From assembly GCA_963700265.1 (NCBI GenBank), contig CAVOWX010000002.1, positions 343,648 to 407,647 of the forward strand: a stretch of DNA of 64,000 bases, in the 5' to 3' direction. This document shows, in pieces, positions 41,264-54,719 of the stretch. Source of the stretch: an uncultured Acidimicrobiaceae bacterium (GTDB lineage Bacteria > Actinomycetota > Acidimicrobiia > Acidimicrobiales > Ilumatobacteraceae). Within the stretch, counting starts at the first letter, position 1, and each line of letters starts with the position of its first letter. A program made the translations under genes and the position numbers. The notes beneath the pieces are model-generated. The model made no database searches, was not told the DNA's origin, and saw only the letters and a list, made by a program, of their open reading frames with translations.

Positions 41264-42117
41264 CTACACGTCGAGCGAGAAGGTTACGGTGTAGTCGTTC
41301 ACGGCGGCGCCGTTTGCTTTGCGCTGAGTGAAGCGCAACGTCTTCGAAACGGACTCGAGGTCGTTGAGCGCCGACAGATCGTTTGTGGTCAGGGAGAGTT
41401 GCTGCACGCCGCCGATCAGATCATCGGCGTTCAAGTGCCCTGGGCTGAGCCCGAGCACCCGTGCCGTTTCGATCGTGCCGGTCATGTTGCTGATCATCGT
41501 GGTCACATACGACGAGTAGGGACGGTTCGTGTTCGTGACTCTGGCGGCAAGCAGTTCGGTGCGGACGACGCCTCGGATGGCATCGGGACTCGCCCCGTCG
41601 TTTTCCATCATGGCCACGAGGAAGATCACGTCCTGTGGGGCAGCGATCGGCTGCGCCAGACCATTCACGTTCCAGAAGGCAGGTCGATCCGCGCTCGGCA
41701 ACAGCGCCGCAAGATGCGTCCCTCCCGGGCCGACGCCTGACCACGGACCGACCTTCACCACGTTGATCGAGGGAAGTGCAATGCCGACGATTCCGGCATT
41801 CACGACGTTGGTCATGTCGAAGGTGGCGATGAGCAGGTATGGCTCATCGTGACCAACCTTGCGCGCTTCGCCGCGTGACAATGGATCTTGGCGACCGTCC
41901 CCAGGATGTTCTGTGGGATCGGGTTCTGGGCTTGCGCCTCCTGTGCGAGGCAGAGATCGAGGGCTCCTTCGGCGCTCTCGATGTCTGCGTCGATTCGGTC
42001 GAGTTGTGCCTGAGCCGCTTGAAGGCCGGCGCCCTGGAGGAACTGCATCACCTCGACTTGTTGGCGGCGTTGGGTGCGGAGCTGGGTCAGATCGGTTTGT
42101 AGTGCGGTGCATGACAT
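41264..42117 (-). CDS. Hypothetical protein (N-terminal coiled coil plus beta-rich DEPY domain), apparent frameshift near 41862
   Basis: MSCTALQTDLTQLR...KIHCHAAK joins KVGHDEPYLLIATFDM...YTVTFSLDV in another frame; GAGG RBS. Confidence 0.7.
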
Positions 42118-42165
42118 GGCGGAGTCCTCTGTTCGTGGCGGTGCTCGAATTGCCCCGCTCCACCC

Positions 42166-42193
42166 CAAGATCCACAGAACGAGCAACAGATAC
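42166..42193 (-). promoter_or_regulatory. Putative ECF sigma promoter P4: GTATC-N15-GGATCTTG
   Basis: Minus strand cGTATC tgttgctcgttctgt GGATCTTG, about 50 bp upstream of ATG 42117. Confidence 0.7.
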
Positions 42194-42228
42194 GTCGAGA
42201 CGACCCTTTGCTGTATGGATCTCGGGTG

Positions 42229-43878
42229 TCAGCAGACCTTGGTCACCGGGCCGGTTGCCTTCGTGTCGCTCGGCAACGTGAGGTCGACAAGTGCTACAGC
42301 CTTGCCCGGGCCGAGATCGGCACGCGTGGCCGAACCATCGCAGGGCACCTGAGGCTTGGCGCCGCTCCGCCCGAGCAGCACGCTCGCATCCCAGACCGAG
42401 ATGTGGTGTGTAGACATCAACTCTGCCAGGGATGCCGCAACGTGCGGAGTGGCGAACGACGTTCCCTGCACTTTCGCCCGGCCCTCGATCAGCACGCTCT
42501 CGACGAGCACTCCCTGCTCGTCGAACGACTCGAAGGTGATGTCGTCGGCATGCAGCGTGACGATGTCCACACCAGGTGCGTAGAAGTCGACCCACGACCC
42601 GCGAGCCGAGAATCCGGCGACGGGCCCAGTTCTGGACGTGGAGGTGATCGGACCACCATCGGCGTCGAGCGTTGCGTCGAGCGCGCCAACCGAGATGACC
42701 CCGGGAAAGCCGGCCGGGTACTCGCGGCGCTGGGTGCCATGGTTGCCCGCTGCTGCGATGATCGCCATCTCGCCGGGACGCCGGGGCGAGAGCCGCTGTA
42801 CGGCCTCGGAGGCGGCGCGAAGCGAAACCGGAACGAGTTCGTCGCCGGGCAACGCCGGATCGAGCTCGCACGCCATCGTCCCGAACGATGCGACCAGCAG
42901 GTTGGGCCAGAGGTTCGTCGCACTGCCGGAGATCGTGGTGACCATCCGCTTGGCCGACGTGAAATCAGTACTGACTCCGTCGCGTGTGATGCGGGCGTTC
43001 TCCACGATCGCGCCCGGCACGAGCGTGGCGATGTGGGCCGAGATCGCCAACCCATGGTCGACCCACAGATTGTCGGCGAGGCCCGGGACCTGACGGTCAG
43101 GAATCTCGACGTCTGCGGGGAGCACCGCGGTCACGTTGGGGATCAGTGCCGGTTCGGTGGTGGCGGCGAGGCCCGAGTCGAAGACCATGATCCGGGTACC
43201 TGCACCGAGTTCCGGTCCGCCCTTCTTGAACGGCTTGCGCGAAACGGGAAGTTCGCTCGTCGGCTGCGGGAGTCCGTCGGGCTGGAAGAAGTCGTGACCA
43301 CCTTGCAGCATGGTGACGTAGTCGGGTGCCGCTGCAACCCCGAATTCGTTGACGAGGTGGCGTGCAAGTCCGACGACGTCGTACGCGCCGCCGACGGGCA
43401 GTTCGAACGCGTAGACAGGGCGAATCGGTGGCTCGCCGTCGTCAATTGTCGGGAACACGATGGAGTCCACGGCGCGCGTCGTGGTGGGCAGCGACGAACC
43501 GATCGGAGCTCTCAGCGATCGTGTGCTCGTACGGTTCGCTCGAGCCGGGGATGACGGCGGTGACGGAGCGATCCACGCGTCGATCCATCCAGACACGGTC
43601 GCCGGCGATTGGTTGGTCTGAACGATGACCCGATTCGCGACGTATGCCACTTCGGCCAGCGGGCCGCCGCAGTTCGGTGAGTTGTCGTACTGGAGGTCGC
43701 CGAACCCTGACGGAATGGTCGGTTCGAGCACACTTGTCCGCACAACGGCCAGCGCTGCGTTTTGCGTGGGTTGCCCAGCGACCGCTGGGATGCCTGTGCC
43801 GATCGCGGCAGCCAGCGCGACGAGTCGTACGCCCCGAACGATGTGACGGTCCCGATGTGGGTGGAGTGTGTTCTTCAT
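42229..43878 (-). CDS. Subtilase (S8 family serine peptidase) with signal peptide
   Basis: Triad VFDSG, DHGLAIS, GTSFATPHVA; oxyanion AAAGNHG; YPAGFPGVISVGA. Confidence 0.88.
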   Translation of the reverse strand: MKNTLHPHRDRHIVRGVRLVALAAAIGTGIPAVAGQPTQNAALAVVRTSVLEPTIPSGFGDLQYDNSPNCGGPLAEVAYVANRVIVQTNQSPATVSGWIDAWIAPSPPSSPARANRTSTRSLRAPIGSSLPTTTRAVDSIVFPTIDDGEPPIRPVYAFELPVGGAYDVVGLARHLVNEFGVAAAPDYVTMLQGGHDFFQPDGLPQPTSELPVSRKPFKKGGPELGAGTRIMVFDSGLAATTEPALIPNVTAVLPADVEIPDRQVPGLADNLWVDHGLAISAHIATLVPGAIVENARITRDGVSTDFTSAKRMVTTISGSATNLWPNLLVASFGTMACELDPALPGDELVPVSLRAASEAVQRLSPRRPGEMAIIAAAGNHGTQRREYPAGFPGVISVGALDATLDADGGPITSTSRTGPVAGFSARGSWVDFYAPGVDIVTLHADDITFESFDEQGVLVESVLIEGRAKVQGTSFATPHVAASLAELMSTHHISVWDASVLLGRSGAKPQVPCDGSATRADLGPGKAVALVDLTLPSDTKATGPVTKVC

Positions 43879-43900
43879 GATCTGTGTCCCCTTGTGTGTG

Positions 43901-44371
43901 TCAGCTCAGCACGAACCAGTCGGTGCTGATCGTGCGGCCGGACGAATCGGTGAGCACGATCCGATGCGGACCGGTCGTGTTGGTAGTGAGGTTGAAGCTG
44001 CCCAGATCGTCGGCCTCGTCCGTTGCGACGACCTCCCCGTCGGAACCGACGAGCTGAATCGACGTGGACTCGCCGGTGATCAGTTGCCCGTTGATGTGTC
44101 CCGATTCGATGTCGACTACGAGTTCGGCTCTGCGGTCGGAGGTGGCGAACAGCAGACCCTCACCGGTGCCACCTCTCGTGCCGACCAACTCGTCGCCGGC
44201 TTCTTGGAGCAGTGCGTTGAGTTCTGCGTCGACGTCGAGCCACGTTGCCAGCTGTTCTGAGCGTTCGAGCAGACCATGTGGCAATGGGTCGGGCCCGAGC
44301 GCGGCGGCGAGTCGAGCAAGGAGTTGCTGTTCGTCAGCGGTGATGTCGTCTGGATCCGGGCGTTGGTTCAT
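43901..44371 (-). CDS. Putative anti-sigma factor (helical N-terminus, Gly-rich linker, beta-sandwich C-terminus)
   Basis: 156 aa directly after the ECF sigma gene; LLARLAAALGPDPLP...GTRGG...ADDLGSF...TDWFVL; anti-sigma role inferred from context. Confidence 0.6.
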   Translation of the reverse strand: MNQRPDPDDITADEQQLLARLAAALGPDPLPHGLLERSEQLATWLDVDAELNALLQEAGDELVGTRGGTGEGLLFATSDRRAELVVDIESGHINGQLITGESTSIQLVGSDGEVVATDEADDLGSFNLTTNTTGPHRIVLTDSSGRTISTDWFVLS

Positions 44372-54464: not shown

Positions 54465-54502
54465 CACCATGGGCTCCTGAGAAGTTCCGGTTGCATGACC
54501 TG

Positions 54503-54530
54503 CACGACCCGTCACCGGTGTGCTGGATAC
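54503..54530 (-). promoter_or_regulatory. Putative ECF sigma promoter P1: GTATC-N15-GGGTCGTG
   Basis: Minus strand tGTATC cagcacaccggtgac GGGTCGTG; shares the 12-mer TGTATCCAGCAC with P3. Confidence 0.75.
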
Positions 54531-54560
54531 ACAAAACGATGAATTGCCTTCGAGAAAACC

Positions 54561-54588
54561 GTATCCAGACTGTTGGGAGGGGGTCATG
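54561..54588 (+). promoter_or_regulatory. Putative ECF sigma promoter P2 (divergent from P1): GTATC-N15-GGGTCATG
   Basis: Plus strand cGTATC cagactgttgggagg GGGTCATG. Confidence 0.7.
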
Positions 54589-54593
54589 GGTGT

Positions 54594-54719
54594 ATGCCAA
54601 GCCTCGGTCACTTCTACGCAGCCAAACTCCTGACCTCCGGTCTCGAGGCCAGTGCAAGGCGGCCCTCTCGTCGACGTCGACGAGTGTTGCGATGGCTCCG
54701 CCCACGACGTCAGTGCTGA
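54594..54719 (+). CDS. Putative leaderless 41-aa Arg-rich small protein
   Basis: [44 protein letters not shown] 5 nt after the P2 motif. Confidence 0.5.
   Translation: MPSLGHFYAAKLLTSGLEASARRPSRRRRRVLRWLRPRRQC

What the first reader, a model, noticed from the sequence alone, without database searches (positions are those of the whole stretch)
41264..54719. Candidate new system: CRISPR-free TPR-CHAT protease / ECF sigma switch wired to two giant unknown proteins
Seen: seven co-oriented minus-strand genes (giant A, giant B, TPR-CHAT with intact His/Cys dyad, ECF sigma, a 156-aa protein, a secreted subtilase, a coiled-coil protein) plus a divergent small ORF. One bipartite motif precedes every unit except CHAT-sigma. 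Known: TPR-CHAT proteases can control sigma factors, as in type III-E Craspase (Csx29 cleaves Csx30, which binds a sigma factor); CHAT/sigma/S8 neighbourhoods also occur in other actinobacteria. Inference: the TPRs sense a trigger, CHAT cleaves the anti-sigma, and the freed sigma induces the giant pair, subtilase, coiled-coil protein and small peptide as a defence, conflict or stress output. The promoter-level link to the output genes is the part that may be undescribed.
Basis: partly seen in the sequence, partly recalled or inferred. Interest (0 to 1): 0.92.

Follow-up and report, generated by a model that had tools for sequence, protein, structure and literature searches.

The report
ECF54-type switch controlling unnamed giant pair
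A catalogued but untested four-gene switch (caspase-like protease, sigma factor, small partner, secreted protease) carries here a variant promoter signal that likely turns on interchangeable cargo genes, among them a widespread, unnamed pair of giant proteins that in almost all other genomes examined sits without this switch.

Summary
The genes and the motif are real. GTATCY-N14-GGRTCNTG occurs 4 times in the 5.1-Mb genome, all in this locus. The TPR-CHAT / sigma / 156-aa protein / subtilase core is the ECF54-type neighbourhood, described by computation since 2015 and noted many times by this scan on other DNA. It is not a new system.

New here: this sigma belongs to a clade with a changed -10 box (GGRTC rather than ECF54's CTC). 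The motif recurs 31 times in 14 related loci, and lies between sigma and the 156-aa gene in 13 of 13 loci where that interval is sequenced. That protein has an invariant linker arginine, a likely cut site.

The giant pair is not part of the core. It is a large unnamed family (at least 5,594 clusters for giant A), often carrying a Tat signal. It sat beside this module in 0 of 29 other loci. One close relative carries the motif before giant A while unlinked to the module, so the promoter link holds in two genomes. No evidence for defence. The last gene's frameshift is probably an assembly error.

The parts
54594..54719 (+). 41-codon basic ORF, starting 8 nt after the -10 box (likely leaderless)
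   Evidence: seven related loci have a 55-73-aa basic ORF starting 8-9 nt after the same motif; sequence similarity of the window peptide to them was not significant (rank 1289 among 31,254 short ORFs)
54561..54588 (+). motif copy P4 (GTATCC-N14-GGGTCATG)
   Evidence: matrix from other genomes scores it 20.8, rank 3 in the genome
54503..54530 (-). motif copy P1 before giant A
   Evidence: rank 1 in the genome, 26.3; also before the 64%-identical giant A of G511
51603..54464 (-). giant A, 953 aa, nearly all-beta, C-terminal amphipathic meander sheet; no Pfam family; no Tat signal in this copy
47764..51591 (-). giant B, 1275 aa, multi-domain with FN3/Ig-like sandwiches in the C-terminal half; no signal peptide
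   Evidence: model covers residues 1-1200 only
47663..47763 (-). intergenic hairpin after giant B, and a TAGTAT hexamer 8 nt before the CHAT start (possible housekeeping -10 box; inferred)
45065..47662 (-). cytoplasmic TPR-CHAT caspase-like protease, H741/C781
44478..45068 (-). ECF sigma factor, ECF54-like, GGRTC clade; overlaps the CHAT stop by 4 nt
44410..44437 (-). motif copy P2 between sigma and the 156-aa gene
   Evidence: same position in 13 of 13 related loci with that interval sequenced
43901..44371 (-). 156-aa soluble protein: likely helical N-part, linker with invariant R66, Ig-like/CarboxypepD_reg C-part; candidate anti-sigma and CHAT substrate
42229..43878 (-). S8 subtilase with full triad and a likely signal peptide
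42166..42193 (-). motif copy P3 before the last gene
   Evidence: rank 2 in the genome, 24.0
41264..42117 (-). last gene, member of an unnamed family of about 283 aa with an N-terminal coiled coil; frameshifted near 41860, probably an assembly error

Best explanation
This is an ECF54-type four-gene module whose sigma factor likely reads the repeated GTATCY-N14-GGRTC motif and would be released when the TPR-CHAT protease cuts the 156-aa partner, and the giant pair is cargo that this lineage has likely placed under that promoter. Shown: gene content and order, intact catalytic residues, the motif and its positions, the tie between motif type and sigma clade, and the independence of the giant pair from the module elsewhere. 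Inferred: (1) CHAT and sigma are made together from a non-motif, probably housekeeping, promoter; (2) the N-terminal part of the 156-aa protein holds sigma inactive; (3) an unknown cytoplasmic signal on the TPRs activates CHAT, which cuts after the invariant R66 in the linker; (4) freed sigma transcribes the 156-aa gene and subtilase (which would reset the switch) plus variable cargo, mostly exported or surface proteins; (5) giant A and B form a heterodimer which, in relatives with a Tat signal on A, is exported folded with B carried along, and binds lipid or membrane through A's hydrophobic-faced sheet. Rough odds: motif is this sigma's promoter 0.9; partner is an anti-sigma 0.6; CHAT cuts it at R66 0.45; output is an envelope or surface response rather than anti-phage defence 0.6.
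For: ECF54 context matches (CarboxypepD_reg in 6 of 18 homologues of the 156-aa protein). Core order CHAT-sigma-156aa-S8 is kept in 12 of 14 close-clade loci; the other 2 end at contig edges. Motif: 31 matches at spacer 14 in 212 kb of those loci, at most 1 at any other spacer from 10 to 20; 2 in 703 kb of giant-pair loci; 0 in 114 kb of 6 distant-sigma loci. The 14 GGRTC sigmas form one branch (100/99); 23 other actinobacterial relatives carry GTATCA-N16/17-CTC 24 times in 79 kb, the published ECF54 motif, which has 0 matches in the close-clade loci. Genome-wide: 25 matches in 5 genomes with this sigma (13 outside the module; reversed pattern 1) against 3 in 5 genomes without it. ATG starts 8-10 nt after the -10 box at 11 of 35 sites. 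R66 is invariant in 18 of 18; separases cut after Arg (PMC11506125, passages). G511: motif before giant A, no module genes on either flank, this sigma on another contig. Cargo elsewhere: RTX-repeat, RCC1-repeat and permease genes. Tat-like signal on giant A in 14 of 35 and 58 of 149 homologues; giant B has none that is credible (1 pattern match in 36, in an over-extended ORF start).
Against: No expression, binding or cleavage data. The ECF54 survey states that the group lacks a putative anti-sigma. The 156-aa gene has its own sigma-type promoter, so a resting pool needs read-through from CHAT-sigma, which was not shown. The window's CHAT has Thr for the consensus Gly after the catalytic His. 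This giant A and its four closest homologues have no Tat signal (0 of 5), so export of this copy is unexplained. The promoter link to the giant pair rests on two genomes of one family. The fold matches of giant A are generic (Z 10-12.3 to many unrelated barrel walls, rmsd 3.4-9.5 for most top rows). The loci are related, so the counts are not independent.
Confidence: 0.55

Rival explanations
1. The motif is the sigma's promoter, but the 156-aa protein is not an anti-sigma: it is a CHAT adaptor or inhibitor, or a helper of the subtilase, and sigma is controlled by direct proteolysis or by transcription.
For: Direct proteolytic control without an anti-sigma is the published proposal for ECF54 (PMC8999054 passages; PMC7826278 supplement). 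The gene lies downstream of the sigma-type promoter and 22 nt before the subtilase.
Against: It is soluble, always at +1 to sigma (17 of 23 distant loci hold a homologue within 1.5 kb of sigma, against 3 of 23 for the subtilase), and has a conserved N-terminal part separate from its Ig-like domain.
Confidence: 0.22
2. One reading: the whole seven-gene locus is one dedicated defence or conflict system in which the giant pair is the obligatory effector.
For: Motif before giant A in two genomes. CHAT-sigma pairs regulate defence genes in Craspase and DdvA/DdvS. The pair is patchy (10 of 400 class genomes, 29 of 400 family genomes) and occurs on plasmids.
Against: 0 of 29 other giant loci have the module and 0 of 14 module loci have the pair. 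Matrix scores around 28 distant giant A starts are at most 1.6, against 18.5 and 26.3 for the two linked ones. No PADLOC match for six of seven proteins. No enzyme or toxin domain found in either giant.
Confidence: 0.1
3. CHAT is a non-catalytic sensor or scaffold that releases sigma by binding, and the conserved Arg is a contact residue.
For: Atypical residue after H741 in this copy; the DdvA CHAT site is described as incomplete (PMC11506125 passages).
Against: His and Cys are invariant in all 10 aligned sequences.
Confidence: 0.13

Closest known systems
ECF group ECF54 (Huang et al. 2015, not held, seen only as cited; Casas-Pastor et al. 2021, PMC7826278, passages and supplement part 14; review PMC8999054, passages)
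   Same: Actinobacterial ECF with a TPR-CHAT neighbour, a carboxypeptidase-regulatory-like protein at +1 and a subtilase at +2; -35 box GTATC(C)AG against the predicted GTATCAG.
   Different: -10 box GGRTC against the predicted CTCC, in the same register; the sigma sits on its own branch; CHAT is at -1 and overlaps sigma; the survey names no anti-sigma and no regulon, whereas here a regulon is traced and the +1 protein is proposed as anti-sigma and substrate.
Type III-E Craspase Csx29 / Csx30 / CASP-sigma (Strecker et al. 2022, PMC10028731, passages)
   Same: TPR-CHAT protease, a neighbouring two-part soluble protein, an ECF sigma and sigma motifs inside the locus; same proposed logic.
   Different: No Cas7-11, crRNA or array; the partner is 156 aa (Csx30 is over 500 aa) and no Csx30 chain appeared in a PDB profile search; the trigger is unknown; a secreted subtilase is part of the core.
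Myxococcus DdvA / DdvS (PMC11506125, passages)
   Same: TPR-CHAT-linked control of an ECF sigma with a dedicated promoter.
   Different: DdvA is one transmembrane anti-sigma with a periplasmic CHAT and a zinc domain, and it controls CBASS and CRISPR genes; here CHAT and partner are separate soluble proteins and no defence gene was found.
Repeating-beta-groove lipid-transfer proteins (AsmA/TamB/VPS13; recalled) and outer-membrane beta-barrels, for giant A
   Same: Long antiparallel meander sheet with one hydrophobic face.
   Different: Only generic barrel-wall matches; no groove protein among the top 50; no sequence link; fixed partner with FN3-like domains; Tat signal in many homologues.

Membership tests
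ECF54 | Minimal ECF sigma in Actinobacteria | tested here: met
   a relative in the same family is titled Ilumatobacteraceae
ECF54 | TPR-CHAT gene nearby | tested here: met
   position -1
ECF54 | Carboxypeptidase-regulatory-like domain at +1 | tested here: met
   6 of 18 homologues match PF13620; the window copy itself does not reach the threshold
ECF54 | Subtilase at +2 or -1 | tested here: met
   position +2
ECF54 | Predicted -35 GTATCAG | tested here: met
   GTATC invariant; GTATCCAG at 3 of 4 sites, a one-base variant
ECF54 | Predicted -10 CTCC (largest subgroups only) | tested here: not met
   GGRTC here; the CTC-type motif has 0 matches in close-clade loci and 24 in distant relatives
ECF54 | Score against the ECF Hub group model / place in the published tree | not testable with these tools
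   no group model on hand; own tree puts the clade beside sigmas that carry the ECF54 motif, 31-41% identical
Type III-E Craspase | Cas7-11 and CRISPR array in the locus | tested here: not met
   no cas-type gene among the locus ORFs and flanks scanned; no CRISPR-like tandem array in the window; the rest of the genome was not searched
Type III-E Craspase | Partner binds sigma and is cut by CHAT | not testable with these tools
DdvA-type anti-sigma | Transmembrane anti-sigma fused to periplasmic TPR-CHAT | tested here: not met
   separate genes; no 19-residue hydrophobic stretch above 1.31 (CHAT) or 0.89 (156-aa protein)
DUF6603 (for giant A) | PF20248 match or profile similarity | tested here: not met
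   0 of 35 members match; profile-profile probability 10% against 9 DUF6603 proteins
Repeating-beta-groove / beta-barrel proteins (for giant A) | Shared fold over a whole domain | tested here: inconclusive
   residues 715-911 match many barrels at Z up to 12.3 with no stand-out; domains could not be refolded singly
Known anti-phage systems (PADLOC 2.0) | Model match | tested here: not met
   1 of 7 proteins matched, a generic subtilase model at E 8e-07

The most novel reading that the evidence does not exclude
ECF54-type modules are CRISPR-free, separase-like switches that cut a hidden anti-sigma at one conserved arginine; this clade has rewired its -10 box to run a private regulon of swappable exported cargo; and one such cargo, giant A/B, is an undescribed two-chain, Tat-exported lipid-binding or pore-forming machine found in thousands of bacterial lineages and plugged into different regulators (STAND-type activators or this sigma).
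Probability: 0.22. Interest if true: 0.78.

Novelty: new variant of a known kind. Interest (0 to 1): 0.45.

Why it matters
No experimental study of ECF54 turned up in the searches run. This locus supplies what an experiment needs: four natural promoters, a clade-specific -10 box with a natural control group (CTC-type relatives), and a single candidate cut site (R66). That makes the open question of how ECF54 is switched directly testable. Separately, the giant A/B pair is a very large family with confident models and no Pfam name, and it deserves study in its own right; tractable copies exist in Streptomyces, Bacillus, Rhizobium and Cupriavidus.

Tried and rejected
Complex prediction of sigma with the 156-aa protein was not available, so there is no verdict on binding. 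DUF6603 identity of giant A: rejected (no paper holds the term). PDB sequence searches with giant A and B profiles: nothing below E 0.1. Foldseek against PDB and viral libraries: TM-scores at most 0.13, uninformative; absence of a groove protein from the VIA list is no exclusion. Weak NCBIfam hits of giant B (tail tube E 0.003, SprA E 0.06) are far below cut-off and were set aside. N-terminal extensions of 31 long giant A homologues: 1 Pfam hit. Atlas: only unnamed clusters at scores of 0.9 or more for a giant B homologue and a last-gene homologue. Homology of the window's 41-aa peptide to the other leaderless peptides: not significant. Two metagenome scans for close giant A relatives found none, and the contexts of P0002/P0017-P0019 could not be read. 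Repeat search over 38.5-56 kb did not pick up the motif and gave only GC-rich chance families. No RNA holder listed. A conserved housekeeping -10 box before CHAT: seen 6-8 nt before the start in 3 of 5 loci where a start was located, 6 more not located; weak. Literature searches found no experimental study of ECF54 and no description of the giant pair; the pair has no name to search by, most subscription papers are not held, Huang 2015 was not held, and the Casas-Pastor supplement was cut when stored.
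Full report
Observation. The window lies on contig C2 of a 5.1-Mb, 86.6%-complete genome. A relative in the same family is titled Ilumatobacteraceae, so the host is most likely an acidimicrobial actinobacterium. 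The seven minus-strand genes and the divergent 41-codon ORF are present. CHAT has H741 and C781, and the subtilase has D234, H275, N379 and S474. The last gene is split by a frameshift near 41860. Its homologues are single proteins of about 283 aa (96 hits; 89% identity over the first 85 residues). One short-read contig is identical over 41862-42157, and its 11-nt loose end matches the window two bases further on. An assembly error is therefore likely, on the evidence of one contig.

The motif. GTATCY-N14-GGRTCNTG has 4 matches in the genome, all in this locus; 22 other spacer lengths give 3 in total. Because the pattern was fitted to these sites, I tested it elsewhere. A clade of sigmas 55-67% identical to this one occurs in 14 of 400 family genomes. 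In those 14 loci (212 kb) a slightly relaxed motif has 31 matches at spacer 14 and at most 1 at any other spacer from 10 to 20. It has 2 matches in 703 kb of giant-pair loci and 0 in 114 kb around 6 more distant sigmas. A matrix built from those 31 foreign sites ranks the four window sites 1, 2, 3 and 6 in the genome. Genome-wide, 5 genomes with this sigma hold 25 matches, 13 of them outside the module, against 3 in 5 genomes without it. An ATG starts 8-10 nt after the -10 box at 11 of 35 sites, as expected for leaderless transcripts (inference).

What the core is. The published ECF54 group is defined by a carboxypeptidase-regulatory-like protein at +1, a subtilase and a TPR-CHAT protein, with no anti-sigma named and a predicted promoter GTATCAG / CTCC (PMC7826278 supplement part 14; PMC8999054 passages). 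The window fits: 6 of 18 homologues of the 156-aa protein match CarboxypepD_reg. The order CHAT, sigma, 156-aa, subtilase is kept in 12 of 14 close loci, and the other two end at contig edges. Of 23 more distant actinobacterial sigma loci, 17 have a 156-aa homologue, 10 a CHAT and 3 a subtilase within 1.5 kb. These carry GTATCA-N16/17-CTC 24 times in 79 kb (4 at spacer 18, at most 1 at others) and the GGRTC type 3 times. The close clade carries the CTC type 0 times and forms one branch, support 100/99. The -10 box thus changes with the sigma clade, which is the strongest sign that this sigma reads this motif. It is one branch, so one event, and not a statistical test. Earlier notes of this scan record the same cassette in at least eight other windows; I had reached ECF54 before reading them.

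The 156-aa protein. It is soluble, with a conserved N-terminal part, a variable linker and an Ig-like C-terminal part. R66 in the linker is invariant in 18 of 18 sequences. Separases cut after arginine (PMC11506125 passages), and in Craspase the CHAT protease cuts the sigma-binding protein Csx30 (PMC10028731 passages). I infer that R66 is the cut site and the N-terminal part the sigma-binding region. Neither was tested. The motif lies between sigma and this gene in 13 of 13 related loci where the interval is sequenced, so induction would also resupply the partner and make the subtilase. No motif precedes CHAT-sigma in the window.

The giant pair. Giant B occurs in 10 of 400 class genomes and 29 of 400 family genomes. 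I fetched all 10 class loci and 20 family stretches from 19 of the 29 genomes. A lies directly before B in 10 of 10 and 19 of 20; the exception was a weak hit with no pair. None of these 29 loci holds the four-gene module. Two partial exceptions: L024 has a different CHAT gene converging on giant B, and L048 has an unrelated ECF sigma (27% identity) two genes upstream. None of the 14 module loci holds the pair, though four are contigs under 5 kb. Nine of 29 giant loci have an AAA/TPR regulator with a LuxR or BTAD domain within about two genes (neighbours picked by eye, no background control). The pair also occurs on plasmids of Bacillus, Streptomyces, Rhizobium, Cupriavidus and Diaphorobacter (16 records for each protein); three regions read showed no CHAT or sigma (gene tables incomplete). 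The giant A profile finds 5,594 clusters at E up to 1e-10.

The link between pair and switch. One genome, G511, has a giant A 64% identical to this one, with the motif 89 nt before its start. An unrelated gene lies upstream of A, unrelated genes follow B, and a close-clade sigma lies on another contig, with 8 motif matches spread over 8 contigs. Around 28 more distant giant A starts the best matrix score is 1.6, against 18.5 in G511 and 26.3 here. In other module loci the motif precedes RTX-repeat proteins, RCC1-repeat proteins, a permease, a 128-aa unnamed protein and short basic leaderless ORFs. The giant pair is best read as one of several cargoes, recruited in a sub-lineage, and shown in two genomes.

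What the giants may be. Giant A folds with mean pLDDT 83.8 as a nearly all-beta protein. Its C-terminal strands mostly have one hydrophobic and one polar face and match many barrel walls without a stand-out (best Z 12.3, rmsd 9.5, 196 aligned). Giant B (residues 1-1200, pLDDT 88.7) has FN3/Ig-like domains between residues 539 and 1153 (Z 7-9); its N-terminal half was barely tested. A Tat-like signal is on giant A in 14 of 35 and 58 of 149 homologues, but not in this copy or its four closest relatives. The fixed order, the 11-nt gap and the one-sided signal suggest a heterodimer exported folded (inference from known Tat hitchhiking, recalled). A lipid groove or a membrane-inserting sheet are both open. 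No catalytic or toxin domain was found, and giant A is not DUF6603.

Verdict. The core is a variant of a known, untested kind; the promoter and regulon reading is well supported by comparison; the protease step is plausible and untested; the obligatory link to the giants and the defence role are not supported. Interest 0.45.

Noticed in passing
L055 14392+, L057 4367-, L058 7212-, L059 4033-, L062 7348-: A family of 55-59-aa basic ORFs ending in a conserved 'F..HPE.W' tail starts 8-9 nt after the motif near the module; too short for usual gene calls.
   Followed up: partly
L018, L026, L028, L036, L041, L042, L045, L046, L049: AAA/TPR regulators with LuxR or BTAD domains sit beside the giant pair in 9 of 29 loci, suggesting the pair swaps regulators.
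   Followed up: partly
G000:C23:3105-8106 (L072): A second CHAT / subtilase / ECF sigma cluster in the same genome (sigma 36% identical), without the GGRTC motif.
   Followed up: partly
L024 9604-11883: A CHAT-domain gene with a GTATCAG-type site before it converges on giant B in another acidimicrobial genome.
   Followed up: no
P0123-P0269: 37 of 149 top giant A homologues share an unnamed N-terminal extension of about 400 aa, many behind a Tat signal; no Pfam match.
   Followed up: partly
L061 6426-6860, L062 12789+, L090 623-1090: An unnamed protein of about 128 aa follows the motif in three genomes, once away from the module.
   Followed up: partly
window 57904-60382 and 35203-37655: Other genes in the window look frameshifted or fused (beta-propeller protein, RNase II-type gene), consistent with indel errors in this assembly.
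   Followed up: no
G000:C3:10654-12021 and C5:561455-563134: Two DUF6603 genes in this genome, one broken into pieces; unrelated to giant A.
   Followed up: partly
window 39450-40520 (+): Secreted 356-aa protein without a Pfam match; its N-terminal domain recurs beside giant pairs (L036, L037, L048) and in module cargo (L063, L065).
   Followed up: no
window 40482-41117 (-): SEC-C motif gene fragment just downstream of the locus; a short-read contig differs from the window by small indels near 40967.
   Followed up: no
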